The notes: generated by a model from the sequence alone, not told the origin. A stretch of 64,000 bases of DNA from Candidatus Limnocylindrales bacterium (GCA_036508755.1 DATCGV010000007.1:24153-88152), one strand, 5' to 3'; shown: positions 37,980 through 44,194, numbered from the stretch's first letter. Program-made: numbers and translations.

Positions 37980-40043
37980 TCAGCCGCGTTGGGCGCGGGC
38001 GCCGTCGGGGTAGAGGCGGACTCGCCGGTACGGCTCGCGCCCGCGCGATTGCGATACGAGGTTGGCCTGCTCTGCCATCTGGTGTTGGAGCCGCCGGATA
38101 TACGCGTTCTGGGGTGACAGCTCCACCGGTTGGGCCTGCCGGTGGACCAGGCCGATCGCCTCCTCCACCTCGCGCAGCGCGGCGTCGCGCGGATCCGCCT
38201 CGAGCGCAAAGATCGAGGTCAAGGCTGATTCGACCTGGACCAGGGTGTTCGACTTGAGCACGAACATCGGCAGGCCGCGCTCCTCAGCCTCGCGCAGCGC
38301 GGGAGGCTTCTGCTTGTAGTAGTTGCGCAGCGTGATCACGACGTCGGCCTCGTCCGGCTCGCGCACCAGCGTCACCGGCAGCTGCAGCTCGCGCACCGCC
38401 TGCTCGAGGCGCTTGTTGGAGACGCCAAAGCCAAGGACGTTCAGCTTGGGCAGTGACGACTCGCCTGGCGCAGGCAGCGGAGTGAGGCGGCGCTCGCCGG
38501 AGAGCTCCTCGTCGGTGGCCTCGTCGTCCAACTCGAGCAGGCTGAGCGGCTCTTCGTCGGCCGCCTCGTCGTCGTCGCCAAAGGTCTCCTCGACGCGCAG
38601 CTGATTGATCGCCCGCGTCGCCTGGTCGCGCCACTCGCGCTGGCGCTGGAACTCGCGCACATCGCGCGCCCGTGGCTCGGGCGGCAGCGAGCCGCGCTCG
38701 AGCGGACCTCGGTCAGCTAGCGGGCCCGCTTGGAACGCCTCCGGCGGTCGTCGATCATCCTCCCATGGCGCGGGCGTGCCGCTGGAGCTGGCCGTGCGTG
38801 TTGATCGGCCGTGTCTCCAGCCACCACTCGCGCCCGGGCGGTAGCCGGGCCGATAGCCCCGTTCGGGCTGCTGCAGCCCGAACTCGTTGTTGAACGATCC
38901 CTGGGCCGCGCGGCCGCCCGGGCGCCAGCCGGGCTCCGTGCGCCAGCCGGCGCCGCTGGAGCCAACGAGGCCGCCGAAGCGCTCGCCGGGCATCTGCGAC
39001 TGCGGCGCCGGCCGCGGCCGAGCCTGCGAGCGCTGGACCGTGCCTACTTCGTCGCGCCAACGCAGCTCAGGCGCGATGGGATCGCCGCGCAGCATCGCGT
39101 CGACAGTCTCGGCGACATCGGGATGGACGCTGACCCGGTCGCGTGACTGGATCTCGACGACGACATCGAAGGTCGGCGGCGCCTTGCGCTCGAGGACGCT
39201 CTTCTGCGTCCTGCGCCGGCGCGCCTCCTCGTCACCCAGCGTGACGCTCTGGATGCCGCCGATCAGGTCGCTCAGCGTCGGATTGAGCATCAGGTTGTCG
39301 AGGTTGTTGCCGTGCGCCGTGCCGATCAACTGCACGCCGCGCTCAGCAATGGTTCGCGCCGCGCCCGCCTCGAGCTCCGTGCCGATCTCGTCGATGACGA
39401 TGACCTGGGGCATGTGATTCTCGACCGCCTCGATCATGACCGAGTGCTGCTGGGCGGGCGTGCGAACCTGCATGCGCCGCGCGCGGCCGATGCCCGGATG
39501 CGGAATATCACCGTCGCCTGCGATCTCGTTGCTCGTGTCGACCACGACGACGCGCTTGTCGAGCTCGTCGGCCAGGACGCGTGCCGCCTCGCGCAGCATG
39601 GTCGTCTTGCCGATGCCCGGCCGGCCCATGATCAGTACGCTCTTCCCAGACTCGACGAGGTCCTTGATGATCTCGATCGTGCCGAACACGGCACGCCCGA
39701 TGCGAGCGGTCAGGCCGACGATCTTGCCGCTGCGGTTGCGTATCGCGCTGATGCGATGCAGCGTGCGCTCGATGCCCGCGCGGTTGTCCTCGCCGAACGA
39801 GCCGATGTGGTCGATGACGTACTGGATGTCCTCGTCGGTCACCTCGCGTTCTCGCAGGAGCTGCTCACCGCCGGCGCCGAAACGCGCCTCCGGCGGCCGT
39901 CCAAGGTCCATCACGACCTCGATCACGTCGCGCTCCACGGGTATCTGTCGGATCGCGGCGCAGATCTCGGGTGGCAGCGCGACGAGCAGCGCCTCCAGGT
40001 CGCTGGGGGCGTCGGCATCGTGTTCGATGATCGGGTTCCTCAT
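37980..40043 (-). CDS. AAA-type ATPase (SpoIIIAA/Ycf45-like) with C-terminal R3H nucleic-acid-binding domain
   Basis: Walker [10 protein letters not shown], Walker [10 protein letters not shown] and [15 protein letters not shown]. Long low-complexity linker. C-terminal R3H-like [38 protein letters not shown]. Confidence 0.8.
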
Positions 40044-40065: not shown

Positions 40066-41178
40066 TCAGCGCAGGACGGCGGGGACGAGCGCCGGCTTGG
40101 TCACACGCTCCACGGCCTCCTTCATCAGCAGCGATACGTGGGCGACGTCCGCGAAGCCATGCTCCTCCAAACGCCGATCAAGCGGTGACTCGTAGGTTCG
40201 CACCGCGCTCAGCACTCCGCGTTCTCCCGAGCCTCGCTCGGCGCGCTGCCAGCGGCCGGCCAAGTCGCTCCAGCGCGAGCGCGTCCGCTCGACGAGCGCG
40301 CTGAGGCAGAACGTGATCAGGTCGCTCGGATCATGGTCGGTACGCGAGATGACGCGAATGTAGTGCGGTTGTTCTGTCTTCGATGTCCCGATCTGGCAGA
40401 ACGCGAGCGCCTCACCATCCAACCTGCCACTCGTCGCCTGCTGGATGAAGGCTTCCACGTCGGCGAAGCGCAGGATGGGCGTCAGCGCCGAGCGTGGCAC
40501 GCGCCAGTGGTTGCCCTGTCGCTCCCAGTCGGGCTGGCGGTAGTCCTCGAGCCGTGCCACGGGTCCGGGCGTCGCGCTGCGGTACAGGCGATCAAGGGTC
40601 AACGCGTCGAGCGGCACCGCCGGGCGGATGCCGTGCTCGTGCGCCTCGGCGGCCGTCATCGGGGCGTCGGGCGCCTGGTCGGGCGATCGGAAGAGGATCG
40701 TTTCCTCTCCGTAACGGGCAAAGCCGGCTTGCATGAACAGCTCGACGTTACCCCCTTCGTCGGAACAGGCGACATGGAAACGCATGCCGCCGCGCTTGCT
40801 TGCGTCTCTCAGCACGCGCTGGACCAGGCGGAAGCGGATGTCGCCCGAGAGTCCTTCGTCCATCGCGTCGAGCTCGACGAATGTCCACTCGTCGCGGATG
40901 TTGTCGTGATCGACGTGGGCGAGGCCCTGAACACGGCCGTCTTCCTCGTAGACGTAGAGGAGGTCAGCGGGCAGCAGTGCCGACAACGGCAAGCGAAAAA
41001 GGGTGAAGACGCTAACGTGGCTCGAACCAACGGGCAGGCCAAGCGTCCGCATTCGGCCATCGCCTGTTGGCGCGAGGTGCGATTGACGCGACAGCTCGCC
41101 GAGCGCGGCGAGATCGGTCAACCGAGCCGCGCGAACGCGTCCGCTGCGCTGCGTCGACGGTCGGGGCGAGGTGATCAC
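40066..41178 (-). CDS. GNAT-family N-acetyltransferase-like protein, two-domain
   Basis: [16 protein letters not shown]..., [47 protein letters not shown]. Start taken at GTG 41178; the ORF is open to TTG 41235, inside the left direct repeat. Confidence 0.7.
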
Positions 41179-41198
41179 TCGGGACTGACCCCGGCATT

Positions 41199-41233
41199 CG
41201 CATCGGCCGCGCGGCGCCGAACCGGGTGCGGCC
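41199..41233. repeat. left copy of 35-bp direct repeat
   Basis: CGCATCGGCCGCGCGGCGCCGAACCGGGTGCGGCC is identical to 42604-42638 except at position 41210 (C versus G). Confidence 0.95.
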
Positions 41234-42603
41234 AAGAGGCGAGCACCGCGCGGTTGGGTAACGCAGCGACGCGCGTCGTGTCCCGACGCTCTCGTTCGGC
41301 GTCCGAGTTCCTCGCCGTGAGGCAGAACTCGAGGCAGGCGAACTTCCCGGACGACCTCAACGTGCCGTTCTTCACGACGGCCAGCACCCTAGGCACCGTC
41401 GAGTGGATCGGCTCGGACGCTTCCGGCACGAGGACGTCGTGACCCAACGTCGGACGGCCCGTCTCCCAAACCGGAGTCTGGACCTGCTCCAGGGGTGGGT
41501 AGGCATGGTCTCGGGGCGGATGAGCTCAAGCCGGCCGGCTGCGCCCTGTTAGCTGGCCTTCGCGTACCTTCATCTCGACTGGCCAACCCGGGTGGGATGC
41601 CGCAGGATCGATCCACGCGTATATTCTGGCCTCCGCTGTGAAGTTACTGCGACGATTGATTCGAACAGCGTTTCGCCGCTTGGGATACCACGTCTCGCAA
41701 CGGCCCCAGCTCCTCGACGATTTCGATAGCCATCTAGCTGGACTACTCCCACGACTCGGCGTCAACTGCGTACTCGACGTCGGTGCACATTGGGGGGAGT
41801 ACGCCACGAGCTTGCGCCGTCTTGGGTTCGATGGGCGGACCGTCTCCTTTGAGCCTGTCGCTCAGAGCTACGAGCGCTTGGCGGTTGTTGCGCGGAGCGA
41901 CGACCACTGGCTCGTACGCAACGTCGCCCTTGGGAGCCTCAACGAGCGAAGGATGATCAACGTTCCCGAAGGGACGGTCTTTGCGTCCTTTTTCGAACCC
42001 AACAAGTTTGGGCTCGAGCGCTTTCCGAAAAGCAGTGTCGGCCATATGGAGGAAGTCGAGGTCCGGACGTTGGACAGCATGGTTGACTCCTGCCTCGAAG
42101 GCCTGAGCCAGCCCAAGGTGTACCTGAAACTCGATACACAAGGCTGGGATCTCGAAGTTCTCAACGGCTCACGCACCGCGCTCCAGTATGTTGTCGGGCT
42201 CCAGAGCGAGCTCTCGGTCAAGCCGATTTACGTCGGAATGCCGAGTTACCTCCAGGTCCTAGACGCTATCCAGGGACTAGGCTTCGGACTCACAGGCATC
42301 TACCCGATATCGAGGGACCGGAATTCCCAGATCATCGAGTTCGATGCCGTCTTCATAAGGGTTGGCTAACACCTCCTGCGTAAGTGGCCAATGTCCCCAC
42401 ACAACGGGAGCTCTCGGCCGTCCCCGTCGACTAGAACTGGACCCGACGACCGCATTCGCCTGCCTAAGAGGACACACGGCTGCACCGGACATGGATTATC
42501 CGTGTGGCCCAAACTGGATCGGTCGGCCGCGCCTTACGCACGCGCCCGGACCATTGGGTGAATGGCCGCGACGTGGTCGTCATTCGTGGCTCGCCTGAGC
42601 GCC
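41234..42603. mobile_element. putative inserted DNA segment (cargo: FkbM methyltransferase) bounded by 35-bp direct repeats
   Basis: Bracketed by the repeats and transcribed opposite to all neighbours. Its 404-bp and 234-bp flanks have no convincing gene. GC is lower by hand count. No recombinase gene is present. Confidence 0.5.
41638..42369 (+). CDS. FkbM-family methyltransferase
   Basis: GTG start. VLDVGAHWGEYATSLRRLGFDGRTVSFEPV, KLDTQGWDLEVLNG and ...IIEFDAVFIR are typical of the FkbM family. Confidence 0.8.
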   Translation: MKLLRRLIRTAFRRLGYHVSQRPQLLDDFDSHLAGLLPRLGVNCVLDVGAHWGEYATSLRRLGFDGRTVSFEPVAQSYERLAVVARSDDHWLVRNVALGSLNERRMINVPEGTVFASFFEPNKFGLERFPKSSVGHMEEVEVRTLDSMVDSCLEGLSQPKVYLKLDTQGWDLEVLNGSRTALQYVVGLQSELSVKPIYVGMPSYLQVLDAIQGLGFGLTGIYPISRDRNSQIIEFDAVFIRVG

Positions 42604-43272
42604 CGCATCGGCCGGGCGGCGCCGAACCGGGTGCGGCCGGCGCCCACTGCCCTCGCCCGGCTCGGCGAACTCGGCGGCCATCGTCGCCACGAGGCGGTGG
42701 AAGCGCGTCTCGCCGGCCAGCTCGGGGTGAAACGCGGTAGCGATCACGCCACCCTTGCGCACGGCCACGACACGGCCGTCGTCGAGCTTCGCGAGGATGT
42801 CCACGTCCGGCCCGACACGCTCCACGATCGGCGCGCGGATGAACACTGCGTGCACGGGCCTGTCGCCCAGGACGGGCACATTGACCTCCGACTCGAAGCT
42901 CTCCAGCTGGCGGCCAAATGCGTTTCGCTTGACGCTGATGTCGAGCAGCGGCAGGACGGGCGCGTCGCCGTCGGTGATCTCACTCGAGAGCAGGATCATG
43001 CCAGCGCAAGTGCCGAAAATCGGGGCGCCCTTGCGCGCAAGATCAAGGATCGGCTGGCGCAGGTCCCAGGTGTCGATCAGCTTGCGCATGGCGGTGCTCT
43101 CGCCGCCCGGGATGATCAGGCCGCTGATGCCGTCCATGTCGCTGGGCAGCCTGATGGGAACGGCGTCGACGCCGAGCTGGCGCAGGATGGCGAGATGCTC
43201 AGCGAACGCGCCCTGGACGGCGAGAACGCCGATCCTGACGCGGCCGTGCGGCTGATCGTGGGTCCCTGTCAT
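42580..43272 (-). CDS. pdxT: pyridoxal 5'-phosphate synthase glutaminase subunit PdxT
   Basis: From ATG 43272: RIGVLAVQGAFAEH, LIIPGGESTAM, GTCAGMILL (nucleophile Cys) and FHPEL. About 35 aa of C-terminal tail runs through the right repeat. Confidence 0.88.
   Translation of the reverse strand: MTGTHDQPHGRVRIGVLAVQGAFAEHLAILRQLGVDAVPIRLPSDMDGISGLIIPGGESTAMRKLIDTWDLRQPILDLARKGAPIFGTCAGMILLSSEITDGDAPVLPLLDISVKRNAFGRQLESFESEVNVPVLGDRPVHAVFIRAPIVERVGPDVDILAKLDDGRVVAVRKGGVIATAFHPELAGETRFHRLVATMAAEFAEPGEGSGRRPHPVRRRPADAGAQASHE
42604..42638. repeat. right copy of 35-bp direct repeat
   Basis: CGCATCGGCCGGGCGGCGCCGAACCGGGTGCGGCC lies inside the 3' tail of pdxT. Confidence 0.95.
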
Positions 43273-43306: not shown

Positions 43307-44194
43307 CTACCAGCCGCGGACGGCGAGGCGCTCGCTCTCCGGCATCGTCCGGACCTCGAGGCCGGGCATCGGCGCGCCCAGTCCCTTCGACACCTCGGCA
43401 ATGATCTGGGGATTGTCGAAGTGGGTCGTCGCCTGGACGATCGCGCGCGCCGTCCGCGCCGGATCCTCCGACTTGAAGATGCCGGAGCCGACGAAGACGC
43501 CCTCCGCGCCCAGCTGCATGGCGAGTGCCGCGTCGGAGGGCGTGGCGATGCCGCCGGCGACGAAGTTGACCACCGGCAGCTTGCCGTTCTGGGCGACGTC
43601 CTTGACCAGCTCGTAGGGCGCCTGGAGGTCCTTGGCCGCGACGAAGAGCTCGTCCTCGCGCATGCCCTGCAGCTCGCGAATGCCCGACCACAGCGCGCGG
43701 ATGTGGCGCACGGCCTCGACGATGTTGCCCGTGCCCGCCTCGCCCTTGGTCCGGATCATTGCCGCGCCCTCGTTGATGCGCCGGAGCGCCTCACCAAGGT
43801 CGCGGCAACCGCACACGAACGGGACCTTGAACAGGTGCTTGTCGATGTGGTTGAGCTCGTCGGCCGGAGTAAGGACCTCCGACTCGTCGATGTAGTCGAC
43901 ACCCAGCGCCTCGAGCACCTGCGCTTCGACGAAGTGGCCGATGCGCGCCTTGGCCATGACCGGGATCGTGACCGCATCCATTATCTGGGTGATCAGCAGC
44001 GGATCGCTCATGCGCGCCACGCCGCCCATCGCACGGATGTCACTAGGGACGCGCTCGAGCGCCATCACGGCGACGGCGCCGGCATCCTCGGCGATCTTGG
44101 CATGCTCGGCCGTGACGACGTCCATGATCACGCCGCCCTTGAGCATCTGGGCGAGGCCCTTCTTGGTCGTCCAGGTCGACTTTTCTTCGGTCAC
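43307..44194 (-). CDS. pdxS: pyridoxal 5'-phosphate synthase lyase subunit PdxS
   Basis: [27 protein letters not shown] and GGVARMSDP. Highly conserved PdxS sequence. Confidence 0.95.

What the first reader, a model, noticed from the sequence alone, without database searches (positions are those of the whole stretch)
41199..42638. 35-bp direct repeats bracket a 1.4-kb lower-GC insertion carrying an orphan FkbM methyltransferase and split a pdxS-pdxT-GNAT operon
Seen: CGCATCGGCCG[C/G]GCGGCGCCGAACCGGGTGCGGCC occurs at 41199-41233 and 42604-42638 in direct orientation, 34/35 identical (the mismatch is 41210 versus 42615). Between the copies lies one plus-strand gene (41638-42369, FkbM family, GTG start). 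It is transcribed opposite to every neighbour and flanked by 404 bp and 234 bp without convincing genes. Hand counts of seven consecutive 60-nt lines inside the gene gave 52-70% GC (mean about 60%). Two lines counted in the flanking GNAT and pdxS genes gave 67% and 78%. If one repeat copy and the intervening DNA are removed in silico, the pdxT frame reads ...[11 protein letters not shown]-stop. Its TGA (41175-41177) then overlaps a GTG (41176-41178) that is in frame with the GNAT gene, giving a GTGA overlap. This is the same stop/start coupling seen throughout this window. In the present state pdxT instead ends ...PADAGAQASHE, read through the right repeat. Inference: this is a fairly recent insertion with duplication of a 35-bp target. 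That is longer than typical transposon target duplications, and the insert carries no recombinase and no convincing terminal inverted repeats. The mechanism could be att-like site-specific integration in trans, a cassette-type element, or microhomology-mediated insertion, and it remains open.
Basis: partly seen in the sequence, partly recalled or inferred. Interest (0 to 1): 0.7.

Follow-up and report, generated by a model that had tools for sequence, protein, structure and literature searches.

The report
Foreign sugar-locus fragment splitting pdxT operon
A 1.3-kb piece of a foreign polysaccharide-synthesis locus (a decayed flippase gene stub plus an intact FkbM methyltransferase gene) sits between pdxT and its normally overlapping downstream gene in one uncultured Chloroflexota lineage; it looks like ordinary recombination-driven gene gain, not a new mobile element.

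Summary
The 35-mer occurs twice (34/35 identical, none expected by chance). FkbM is the lowest-GC stretch of the whole window. Deleting one copy plus the insert restores a pdxT/downstream-gene GTGA overlap. Relatives show that empty site: 81 of 83 related loci, down to 55% protein identity, have pdxT directly upstream of the 370-aa gene, and none has FkbM.

Three points need correction:
- The repeat is 122 bp (41112-41233 and 42517-42638), not 35 bp. It duplicates the pdxT tail plus the first 63 nt of the downstream gene. Only its outer 35 nt are near-identical; the other 87 nt are 61% identical.
- The cargo is a random chunk of a polysaccharide locus. The 404-bp "empty" flank holds a decayed 5' fragment of a Wzx-type flippase gene that ends exactly at the repeat. 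One metagenome contig (L016) has the same divergent flippase/FkbM pair.
- There is no recombinase, no terminal inverted repeats, no attC, and no plasmid or phage match.

The host flanks are mosaic. A tract running from just outside the right repeat, through the insert, to about 41050 resembles a different related clade (p about 1e-11). This suggests the filled allele arrived by homologous recombination from a relative. How the 122-bp duplication first arose is unresolved. Interest is low to moderate.

The parts
43307..44194 (-). pdxS (PLP synthase subunit)
   Evidence: PF01680 SOR_SNZ, E 3.4e-109.
42580..43272 (-). pdxT (glutaminase subunit). Its last 20 codons run through the right repeat copy, and it ends ...PADAGAQASHE.
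   Evidence: PF01174 SNO, E 1.8e-54. ORF translation.
42517..42638 (.). Right copy of the 122-nt junction repeat. It comprises the 35-nt core (42604-42638), the functional pdxT tail plus stop (42580-42603), and a decayed in-frame remnant of the first about 21 codons of the 370-aa gene (42517-42582; MTTTSRPFTQWSGRVRKARPTD).
   Evidence: The conserved RLTDL motif is changed to RPTDP.
42370..42516 (.). 147-nt 3' flank of FkbM. Origin unknown; 61.9% GC; no homology to L016 or anything else found.
41638..42369 (+). Intact FkbM-family SAM-dependent methyltransferase gene, 243 aa, GTG start.
   Evidence: PF05050 and TIGR01444 above their cut-offs. The DVGAHWGE motif is present. dN/dS is 0.22 against the 73%-identical L016 homologue. 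GC 58.1% and GC3 0.71.
41448..41637 (.). Upstream region between FkbM and the flippase remnant. Presumably what is left of the divergent promoter region and the 5' end of the flippase gene; no recognisable homology.
41234..41447 (-). Decayed 5' fragment of a Wzx-type (Polysacc_synt) flippase gene, truncated at about codon 112. It ends exactly at the repeat edge 41233|41234.
   Evidence: Positions 41266-41389 are 68.5% nt identical and 49% aa identical (E 8e-8) to residues 60-111 of the L016 flippase, which hits PF01943 at E 1.3e-14. Hydrophobic residues are replaced, so this is a pseudogene.
41175..41447 (-). Chimeric 90-codon ORF. The flippase remnant is fused in frame to the left pdxT pseudo-tail, and the ORF stops at the TGA that overlaps the GTG of the 370-aa gene. 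No evidence that it is functional.
   Evidence: It is called as a gene in L003, L006 and L007. No family hit.
41112..41233 (.). Left copy of the 122-nt junction repeat. It comprises the 35-nt core (41199-41233, now non-coding for pdxT), the pdxT pseudo-tail plus TGA (41175-41198), and the true 5' end of the 370-aa gene (41112-41178).
40066..41178 (-). Conserved 370-aa gene, tandem-GNAT-like at fold level only. The GTG start at 41178 overlaps the old pdxT stop.
   Evidence: Full-length 365-370-aa homologues cover 100% of it. No Pfam, NCBIfam or PDB sequence hit. An AF2 model (pLDDT 57) matches tandem GNAT structures at Foldseek E 1e-10.
41044..42652 (.). Tract whose host-derived parts resemble the L015/L042 clade rather than the L012/L040 clade: both repeat copies and the first about 130 nt of the 370-aa gene. 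The breakpoints lie between 42637 and 42652 and between 41044 and 41052. Inferred to be a recombination import that carried the insert.
   Evidence: Informative sites are 25 L015-type against 8 L040-type inside the tract, and 74 against 338 outside it (Fisher p 1e-11).
37980..40043 (-). Downstream operon member: a SpoIIIAA-like ATPase / PTPase / R3H protein, now separated from pdxST by the insert.
   Evidence: Pfam hits. The gene order is conserved in relatives.

Best explanation
What it is (shown). The insert is 1,283 bp (41234-42516) of compositionally foreign DNA cut from a polysaccharide (O-antigen/EPS-type) biosynthesis locus. It carries a truncated, decayed 5' stub of a Wzx-type flippase gene and, divergently transcribed, an intact FkbM-family methyltransferase gene. 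It lies in the junction between pdxT and a conserved 370-aa tandem-GNAT-like gene of an uncultured Chloroflexota (Limnocylindria-like) bacterium. In relatives these two genes overlap by 1-4 nt. It is not an autonomous or recognisable mobile element.

How it got here (inferred). This lineage did not create the insertion itself. It received the already filled allele from a related lineage (L015/L042-like clade) as a homologous-recombination tract of about 1.6 kb, with crossovers at about 42638-42652 and about 41044-41052. The mosaic repeat has a near-identical 35-nt block, about the minimal length RecA needs for efficient exchange. Next to it lie 87 nt that are not sister sequences. This mosaic is best explained by a crossover at or next to that block between molecules from different related lineages, either a Campbell-type single crossover of a circularised fragment or a crossover inside the left repeat during an earlier inter-lineage transfer. 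The founding event that first joined the polysaccharide fragment to the junction and duplicated 122 bp was an illegitimate, host-repair-mediated event and cannot be reconstructed from these data.

Consequences (inferred). pdxT keeps a functional but different 8-residue tail. The 370-aa gene and the ATPase gene behind it lose translational coupling to pdxT. The cell gains one methyltransferase that is still under purifying selection.
For: Insertion and empty site:
- Contigs L012, L013/L014 and L015, whose 370-aa protein is 84-91% identical, have pdxT overlapping that gene by 1-4 nt.
- 77 of 79 further metagenomic relatives (55-91% identity) have pdxT immediately upstream, and none carries FkbM.
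- Both junctions appear in at least 7 independent assemblies at 99-100% identity.

Foreign origin:
- FkbM has the lowest GC of the window, 4.4 sd below the mean, and GC3 of 0.71 against 0.81-0.92.
- The closest homologue is 73% identical and lies on contig L016. That contig also has a divergent Polysacc_synt flippase, homologous to window 41266-41389.
- Homologues at 52-60% identity sit in Wzy / GT4 / GT2 / flippase clusters.
- The best hit in GTDB genomes is only 45% identical.

Not a mobile element:
- No recombinase lies in the insert or within 10 kb either side.
- There are no terminal inverted repeats, Rfam hits or terminator/promoter signals, and no plasmid or phage match.
- The cargo includes a truncated gene ending exactly at the repeat edge.

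Repeat structure:
- The repeat is 122 nt at 71% identity, E 1.4e-11.
- The three segments are 34/35, 14/27 and 39/60 identical. The change-point gives Fisher p 1.7e-5.

Different origins of the two copies:
- In a quartet test the 35-mers are sisters (97% bootstrap), but the tail plus 5' part are sisters in only 9% of replicates. The best topology pairs left with L015 and right with L042 (81%).

Import tract:
- The window is 0.92 identical to L040 in the flanks but 0.74 in the patch, against 0.81 to L015.
- Informative sites give p 1e-11, with breakpoints at 42637-42652 and 41044-41052.

Background and gene state:
- MEPS of 25-35 bp, and shorter integration tracts with more divergent donor DNA: PMC6382021.
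- FkbM dN/dS is 0.22.
Against: - No donor lineage carrying the filled allele was found. No relative matches the right-hand remnant better than 75%, and FkbM at 75-99% identity is absent from a 5.8-billion-protein database.
- The right crossover falling within 15 nt of the repeat edge is a coincidence under a simple double-crossover import.
- The quartet result rests on 87 sites, one branch is a decaying pseudogene, and support is 81%, not decisive.
- If the insertion is old enough for the 63-nt remnant to have lost conserved residues, the now non-coding left 35-mer should have picked up about 4 changes; it has at most 1 (Poisson P about 0.08). That is only marginally compatible without a more recent crossover or conversion in the block.
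- The patch could instead be an old haplotype polymorphism linked to the 27-nt tail indel, unrelated to the insertion.
- The two collection scans for the 35-mer were uninformative, because those collections evidently do not hold this organism's contigs.
Confidence: 0.5

Rival explanations
1. In-situ origin. The polysaccharide fragment was captured in this very lineage at a staggered break or by replication template switching, which duplicated 122 bp of the junction. Both copies then decayed where they were unselected. The 35-nt block was later re-homogenised by a short gene-conversion or short-patch repair event, or it is held by an unknown constraint.
For: - It is the simplest topology: one event gives two direct copies of the exact junction.
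- Both 35-mers share the derived 'GGTTCGG', where all relatives have GGTCAGG or other variants. They are sisters at 97% bootstrap.
- The left pseudo-tail and the right 5' remnant are exactly the parts freed from selection, and they are the diverged parts.
Against: - The left, functional 5' end of the 370-aa gene shows 9 changes in 60 nt since the common ancestor of the two copies. That is more than its whole divergence budget since the split from the empty-site relative L012/L040.
- The tail plus 5' parts are not sisters (9% bootstrap).
- A 35-nt conversion tract abutting non-homology has no homologous anchor on either side.
- The predicted RNA fold of the block is no better than shuffles (z about 0), so a structural constraint has no support.
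- It does not explain the L015-like patch, which extends 60 nt beyond the repeat.
Confidence: 0.27
2. A small recombinase-less integrative module or cassette uses the 35-mer as an att-like core and is moved in trans by a site-specific recombinase encoded elsewhere. It integrates into the 3' end of pdxT and supplies a replacement tail.
For: - The identity block has sharp edges on both sides.
- Integration at the 3' end of a gene with the reading frame restored by insert-side sequence is typical of integrase-driven islands.
- The adjoining decayed junction copy could be a fossil carried by the element.
- Short metagenome contigs containing FkbM end near both repeats.
Against: - No integrase, transposase or relaxase lies in the insert or within 10 kb either side.
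- The cargo is a random chunk with a truncated flippase gene abutting the core, not a packaged cassette. There is no attC-like or terminal inverted structure.
- The module and its FkbM are found in only this one lineage among billions of proteins and 83 related loci.
- There is no second copy of the 35-mer flanking anything else in 64 kb.
- There is no plasmid or phage relative.
Confidence: 0.07
3. The arrangement is ancestral, and all relatives lost the insert by recombination between the repeats.
For: Direct repeats can delete intervening DNA precisely. The decayed remnants show the module is not brand new.
Against: - 81 of 83 relatives across a range of 55-91% identity have the tight junction, many with different tails. 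That would require many independent precise losses.
- FkbM GC and GC3 are far from the host's and not ameliorated.
- FkbM's nearest relatives lie in polysaccharide loci, not at pdxT.
Confidence: 0.02
4. Assembly chimera: the insert was joined to the pdx locus by mis-assembly at the repeat.
For: The data are metagenome-derived. One contig of the same sample (L039) has an obviously artefactual end.
Against: Both junctions are spanned by contigs of 3.8-61 kb from at least 7 separate assemblies made by two pipelines (JGI and ENA/MEGAHIT), at 99-100% identity. A 35-nt repeat is shorter than the k-mers used (k141).
Confidence: 0.01

Closest known systems
Acquisition of foreign genes by homologous recombination in flanking core genes, including homology-facilitated illegitimate recombination (HFIR) in naturally transformable bacteria (de Vries & Wackernagel 2002, Prudhomme et al. 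2002, Meier & Wackernagel 2003, as cited in PMC6382021)
   Same: Non-mobile foreign DNA is carried into a conserved locus. Short imported flanks come from a diverged relative. A MEPS-sized identity block (25-35 bp) lies at a junction. No element-encoded recombinase is involved.
   Different: Classical HFIR and double-crossover replacement do not leave a direct duplication of the target. Here a 122-bp junction duplication brackets the insert, which requires a single-crossover (Campbell-type) step or an earlier duplicative capture. The recombination machinery and competence of this uncultured organism are unknown.
Integrase-driven genomic islands that insert into the 3' end of a gene and rebuild it (attL/attR direct repeats)
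   Same: A direct repeat contains the 3' end of the target gene. The insert-side sequence supplies a new in-frame C-terminus and stop. The cargo has lower GC.
   Different: There is no integrase, the insert is only 1.3 kb, the cargo is a truncated locus fragment, the repeat also contains 63 nt of the next gene, and no other occurrences were found.
Integron gene cassettes / CALINs
   Same: A single intact ORF of about 0.7 kb of foreign composition is inserted in an ordered gene array.
   Different: There is no attC (no imperfect inverted repeat and no GTTRRRY core at the ends). The insert carries 400 bp of upstream DNA with a second, truncated gene. The ORF is oriented against the array, and there is no attI or intI.
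FkbM-family methyltransferases of O-antigen/EPS gene clusters
   Same: Profile hits are above threshold and the SAM-binding motif DVGAxxGE is present. Homologues lie beside Wzx, Wzy and glycosyltransferase genes.
   Different: This copy is orphaned from any glycan cluster, so its substrate in the present host is unknown.

Membership tests
Transposon / insertion sequence with target-site duplication | Transposase gene inside the element | tested here: not met
   The only family hit inside 41234-42516 is FkbM. The other ORFs have no Pfam or NCBIfam hit.
Transposon / insertion sequence with target-site duplication | Terminal inverted repeats at the insert ends | tested here: not met
   No inverted repeat pairs 41234-41330 with 42420-42516 (seed 7).
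Transposon / insertion sequence with target-site duplication | Short, exact target duplication (typically 2-14 bp) | tested here: not met
   The duplication is 122 bp at 71% identity, with a 35-bp near-exact block.
Integrase-mediated integrative element (att sites) | Tyrosine or serine recombinase encoded by the element | tested here: not met
   None in the insert or within 10 kb either side.
Integrase-mediated integrative element (att sites) | Identical core sequence as a direct repeat at both ends | tested here: met
   34/35 identity at 41199-41233 and 42604-42638.
Integrase-mediated integrative element (att sites) | Same element recurring at the same att site in other genomes, or an excised circle / precise empty site in the same population | tested here: inconclusive
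   It was not seen in 83 related loci or among FkbM homologues. Population reads could not be examined, and the collection scans do not cover this organism.
Integron gene cassette | attC recombination site (imperfect inverted repeats R''-L''/L'-R' with a GTTRRRY core) at the cassette boundary | tested here: not met
   There is no such inverted structure at either end. The 35-mer contains no GTTRRRY.
Integron gene cassette | Compact promoterless single ORF | tested here: not met
   The insert has 404 bp upstream with a truncated second gene and 147 bp downstream.
Homologous-recombination import from a diverged relative | Flanking host sequence with a different phylogenetic affinity from the rest of the locus, with definable breakpoints | tested here: met
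   The patch 42637/42652 to 41052/41044 is L015-like against an L040-like background (p 1e-11).
Homologous-recombination import from a diverged relative | A donor lineage carrying the same insertion | tested here: not met
   No filled site exists among the relatives. The best match to the right remnant is 75%.
Campbell-type single crossover at a MEPS-sized identity block | Identity block of at least 25-35 bp shared by both repeat copies, with flanking repeat sequence of different origin | tested here: met
   The block is 35 bp at 34/35. The adjoining 87 nt are not sisters (9% bootstrap). The MEPS size is from PMC6382021.
FkbM family methyltransferase (PF05050 / TIGR01444) | Profile score above the curated cut-off | tested here: met
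   PF05050 scores 43.8 bits (cut-off 22.7). TIGR01444 scores 66.9 bits (cut-off 37.7).
GNAT acetyltransferase (the downstream 370-aa gene) | Sequence-profile match to a GNAT family | tested here: not met
   There is no Pfam, NCBIfam or PDB-profile hit, even at E <= 1.
GNAT acetyltransferase (the downstream 370-aa gene) | GNAT fold (beta1-alpha1-alpha2-beta2-4-alpha3-beta5-alpha4-beta6), here in tandem | tested here: inconclusive
   The AF2 model has mean pLDDT 57. Its secondary-structure order fits two GNAT halves. The top 13 Foldseek hits are tandem-GNAT or related acetyltransferases at E 1e-10 to 1e-8, but TM is only about 0.4.
Wzx-type MOP flippase (remnant at 41234-41447) | Homology to a Polysacc_synt family protein | tested here: met
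   It is 49% identical over 53 aa (E 8e-8) to the L016 protein, which hits PF01943 at 1.3e-14. The remnant itself has no direct profile hit.

The most novel reading that the evidence does not exclude
The 35-bp block is a functional recombination site. A recombinase-less module (FkbM plus fossil flanks) would repeatedly excise and re-integrate at the 3' end of pdxT in related Limnocylindria-like bacteria. It would be driven in trans by a host or helper site-specific recombinase, or by RecA acting on a minimal identity segment. That would make it a new type of hitch-hiking micro-island that keeps its own copy of the target junction.
Probability: 0.06. Interest if true: 0.6.

Novelty: new member of a known kind. 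Interest (0 to 1): 0.27.

Why it matters
It is a clean, well-bounded natural example of how non-mobile DNA enters a conserved operon in an uncultured soil and freshwater phylum. The empty site, the donor-type locus, the truncated second gene and the imported host flanks are all visible. It shows that a "perfect 35-bp direct repeat around a low-GC gene" need not be an att site or a target-site duplication. Here it is the preserved end of a longer, mosaic junction duplication. For annotation, it warns that the 90-codon ORF called in several assemblies is a chimeric pseudogene, and that the pdxT C-terminus in this lineage is insert-supplied. It neither opens nor closes a major question.

Tried and rejected
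- **Dispersed repeat.** Only two copies of the 35-mer occur in the window with up to 3 mismatches, and nothing else in the window matches the insert. Exact scans of genome contigs and metagenome contigs gave 0 hits. I discount these, because JGI contigs that demonstrably hold the 35-mer were not returned, so those collections do not cover this organism.
- **Structured RNA or terminator in the 35-mer.** The folds are no better than shuffles (z from -0.4 to +0.1). The only Rfam match is a chance-level one (CrfA, E 0.61). No promoter or terminator pattern exceeds shuffles.
- **Terminal inverted repeats or attC.** None found.
- **Plasmid or phage origin.** No blastn match.
- **Donor among sequenced genomes.** The best FkbM in GTDB species representatives is 45% identical (Actinomycetota, Myxococcota), so the donor taxon is unknown.
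- **Donor lineage for the right-hand remnant.** The best match is 75%, to L015.
- **Contig-end evidence for presence/absence polymorphism.** L001 and L002 end at 42487 and 42490, L001 starts at 41173 and L039 starts at 41071. This is suggestive, but it cannot be interpreted without reads.
- **Relatives lacking pdxT upstream (L097, L104).** I checked them for a polysaccharide locus next to the 370-aa gene. They have EAL-domain and IspD genes instead.
- **Remaining flippase N-terminus upstream of 41447.** Not detectable in any frame.
Full report
**1. The observation**

- The 35-mer CGCATCGGCCG[C/G]GCGGCGCCGAACCGGGTGCGGCC lies at 41199-41233 and 42604-42638 in direct orientation. The single mismatch is at 41210/42615. 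With up to three mismatches allowed, these are the only two copies in the 64-kb window, and none was expected in 100 dinucleotide-preserving shuffles.
- Between the copies is one plus-strand ORF, 41638-42369, with a GTG start. It is an FkbM-family methyltransferase (PF05050 E 4e-11; TIGR01444 E 2.5e-18).
- Its GC content is 58.1%, the lowest of all 732-nt windows in the 64 kb (mean 68.2%, sd 2.3%). Its GC3 is 0.71, against 0.81-0.92 in the neighbouring genes.
- pdxT (42580-43272, minus strand) ends ...PADAGAQASHE, reading through the right copy.
- The left copy is followed by ...NAGVSPE-TGA. That TGA (41175-41177) overlaps a GTG (41176-41178) in frame with the downstream gene.

**2.

- The repeat finder and a pairwise alignment extend the homology to 41112-41233 versus 42517-42638: 122 nt without gaps, 71% identical, blastn E 1.4e-11.
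- Read on the minus strand, the repeat has three segments:
  - the 35-nt block, which encodes RPHPVRRRxADA of the pdxT C-terminus;
  - 24 nt of pdxT tail plus the stop codon;
  - the first 63 nt of the downstream gene.
- Identity is 34/35 in the block, 14/27 in the tail and 39/60 in the 5' part of the downstream gene. The drop at the block's inner edge is significant (Fisher p 1.7e-5).
- The outer edge at 41233|41234 and 42638|42639 is abrupt.
- The right copy therefore carries a functional pdxT tail followed by an in-frame but decayed stub of the downstream gene (MTTTSRPFTQWSGRVRKARPTD). In that stub, the RLTDL motif that is invariant in relatives has become RPTDP.
- The left copy carries a now useless pdxT pseudo-tail followed by the real start of the downstream gene.

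**3. The organism and the empty site**

- Homologues of the downstream 370-aa protein are numerous (2,472 at E <= 1e-5). Where they are named, they come from 'Candidatus Limnocylindrales' or Chloroflexota MAGs. Most close homologues are 365-370 aa long and cover the whole query, which supports the GTG at 41178 as the start.
- Contigs encoding the closest homologues show the predicted empty site:
  - L012 (protein 91% identical): pdxT at 197-862 and the next gene at 859-1971;
  - L015 (84%): 534-1241 and 1238-2332;
  - L013/L014 (86%): a 1-nt overlap.
- A metagenome scan returned 80 more loci. Of the 79 that include the 5' end, 77 have pdxT immediately upstream. The gap between the protein alignments ranges from -18 to 221 nt, and is mostly under 60 nt.
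- The other two loci (L097, L104) have unrelated upstream genes (EAL domain, IspD). None of the 83 related loci has an FkbM hit.
- The insertion is real, not a chimera. Contigs of 3.8-61 kb from at least seven separate JGI and ENA assemblies span both junctions at 99-100% identity.

**4. What the insert is**

- The closest FkbM homologue (73% aa, 79% nt) lies on a 1.9-kb metagenome contig, L016 (NCBI VFSW01217021.1).
- Upstream of it, and divergently transcribed, is the start of a Polysacc_synt (Wzx-type, MOP-superfamily) flippase gene (PF01943 E 1.3e-14).
It has the same orientation relative to FkbM.
- The remnant has lost the hydrophobic character of the transmembrane segment (GIFAGGGLGLTATKF has become GKFACLEFCLTARNS). 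Its N-terminal 59 codons are no longer recognisable. It stops exactly at the repeat edge (…NRAVLAS|WPHPVRRR).
- More distant FkbM homologues (52-60% identity) lie next to Wzy, GT4, GT2 and flippase genes.
- The insert is thus a 1,283-bp chunk of an O-antigen/EPS-type locus: one truncated gene, a shrunken divergent intergenic region, one whole gene and 147 nt of unidentified 3' flank.
- FkbM is still under purifying selection relative to L016 (dN/dS 0.22) and keeps the DVGAxxGE SAM motif.
- In GTDB species representatives the best FkbM match is only 45% identical (Actinomycetota, Myxococcota), so the donor taxon is unknown.

**5. It does not look like a mobile element**

- No transposase, integrase or relaxase lies in the insert or in the 10 kb on either side.
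- There are no terminal inverted repeats and no attC-like structure.
- No Rfam family matches beyond chance, and no promoter or terminator pattern exceeds shuffles.
- The 35-mer does not fold better than shuffled sequence.
- There is no DNA match in plasmid or phage collections.
- A cargo that consists of a gene stub plus a gene, with the stub abutting the repeat, is what a random breakage fragment looks like, not a packaged cassette.

**6. How it probably got here**

Two further results bear on mechanism.

- *The two repeat copies have different relationships in different segments.* In a four-taxon test with L015 and L042, the two 35-mers are sisters (97% of bootstrap replicates). They share the derived GGTTCGG, where relatives have GGTCAGG. 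The 87 nt next to them are sisters in only 9% of replicates. The favoured topology pairs the left copy with L015 and the right copy with L042 (81%). By additive distances, the functional left 5' end has 9 changes in 60 nt since the common ancestor of the two copies. That exceeds what the whole divergence from the empty-site relative L012/L040 allows.
- *The host flanks are mosaic.* The window is L012/L040-like almost everywhere (0.92 identity, against 0.80 to L015). The exception is a patch running from the outer edge of the repeat to about 41050, where it is L015-like (0.81, against 0.74 to L040). Informative sites are 25:8 in favour of L015 inside the patch and 74:338 outside it (p 1e-11). 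Using only sites where both members of each clade agree, the counts are 11:1 against 17:152 (p 2e-9). The breakpoints fall between 42637 and 42652 and between 41044 and 41052. The right copy's tail is also of the L015/L042 type.

In filled coordinates, the patch is one tract of about 1.6 kb containing both repeats and the insert.

My best reading is therefore that this lineage received the already filled allele from a member of the L015/L042 clade by homologous recombination with short flanking exchange. Short flanks are expected for donor DNA about 20% diverged (PMC6382021).

The mosaic repeat would record a crossover at or next to the 35-nt block between molecules of different lineages. That block is about the 25-35-bp minimal efficient processing segment for RecA-mediated exchange (PMC6382021). 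The crossover could have been a Campbell-type single crossover of a circularised fragment that carried its own junction copy. It could also have been a crossover within the left repeat during an earlier inter-lineage transfer.

Shown:
- the insertion and the empty site;
- the nature of the cargo;
- the 122-nt mosaic repeat;
- the mosaic flanks.

Inferred:
- the direction and number of transfers;
- the crossover positions;
- the founding illegitimate event that first duplicated 122 bp.

**7. Weaknesses of this reading**

- No donor with a filled site was found.
- No FkbM at 75-99% identity exists in the protein database.
- The quartet test has only 87 sites and one decaying branch.
- The right breakpoint lying within 15 nt of the repeat edge is a coincidence under a plain double crossover.
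- The patch might be an old haplotype linked to a 27-nt tail indel that itself does not follow the gene tree.
- The main rival is in-situ duplication, followed by decay and then a short conversion of the 35-nt block. It explains the sister relationship of the blocks, but not the excess divergence of the functional 5' end, the non-sister 87 nt, or the patch beyond the repeat. I give it about 0.27.
- The att-like or cassette reading gets about 0.07.
- Ancestral presence with many independent losses, and assembly chimera, are each at most 0.02.

**8. The 'GNAT' label**

- The 370-aa protein has no Pfam, NCBIfam or PDB sequence-profile match, even at E <= 1.
- An AlphaFold2 model built from 24 homologues is of low confidence (mean pLDDT 57). 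Its secondary-structure order nevertheless fits two GNAT halves.
- Its top 13 Foldseek hits are tandem-GNAT or related acetyltransferases (histidine acetyltransferase, VipF, the clavulanate-pathway tandem GNAT, MAB_4324), at E 1e-10 to 1e-8 and TM about 0.4.
- "Tandem-GNAT-like" is a reasonable but unproven name.

**9. Comparison with known systems and verdict**

- Functionally this is ordinary gene gain by host recombination, akin to import through flanking homology or homology-facilitated illegitimate recombination.
- The unusual feature is the 122-bp junction duplication, which those mechanisms do not normally leave.
- It fails the defining tests for an IS or transposon, an integrase island and an integron cassette (see the membership table).
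- It is a new instance of a known kind of event. It is well documented here, and of modest interest.

Noticed in passing
window 42580-42638; L012, L013, L015, L040-L050 junctions: The pdxT C-terminal tail carries a 27-nt (24-nt in some) indel polymorphism. It does not follow the gene tree: it is present in the window, L015, L042 and L046-L050, and absent in L012/L040, L013, L041 and L043-L045. This suggests recombination or recurrent indels in this segment.
   Followed up: partly
L008 (ERZ27294297 k141_1419976) vs window 42910-43018 and 43463-43595: Of the 37 differences from the window, 30 are clustered in two short stretches, one in pdxT and one in pdxS, while the insert has only 2. These are either recombination tracts from a related strain or a strain-mixed assembly.
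   Followed up: partly
window 41175-41447 (-): A 90-codon chimeric ORF fuses the flippase remnant in frame to the pdxT pseudo-tail and stops at the TGA that overlaps the GTG of the 370-aa gene. Gene callers annotate it in L003, L006 and L007. It could preserve translational coupling into the downstream gene, or it could be a chance ORF in GC-rich DNA.
   Followed up: no
L039 (JGI24129J20441_1011662): This contig comes from the same sample as the filled contig L006. It starts at window 41071, 41 nt from the left repeat, and ends with a 266-nt second copy of 38972-39237. That is probably an assembly artefact, though it might hint at heterogeneity near the junction.
   Followed up: partly
L001 (window 41173-42487) and L002 (41513-42490): Two short metagenome contigs that carry exactly this FkbM both end at 42487-42490, about 30 nt before the right repeat. 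One of them starts at 41173. This could reflect presence/absence variation in those samples, but it cannot be interpreted without reads.
   Followed up: no
L097, L104: In two relatives (about 58% protein identity) the 370-aa gene is preceded by an EAL-domain gene and an IspD-like gene instead of pdxT. The pdxT linkage is therefore not universal.
   Followed up: partly
window 40066-41178 (-): A widely conserved family of 365-370-aa proteins in Limnocylindria-like Chloroflexota, almost always translationally coupled to pdxT, has no Pfam or NCBIfam model. It appears to be a tandem GNAT at fold level. A possible link between PLP synthesis and an acyltransferase is unexplored.
   Followed up: partly
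collections metagenome contigs / genome contigs: Exact scans for the 35-mer returned nothing, although JGI contigs fetched by protein look-up (L003, L006, L007, L009) contain it. Negative results from these scans should not be read as absence for this organism.
   Followed up: yes
window 41638-42369: Gene callers disagree on the FkbM start (185, 229 and 243 aa in different assemblies). Alignment to the L016 homologue supports the 243-aa GTG start at 41638.
   Followed up: yes
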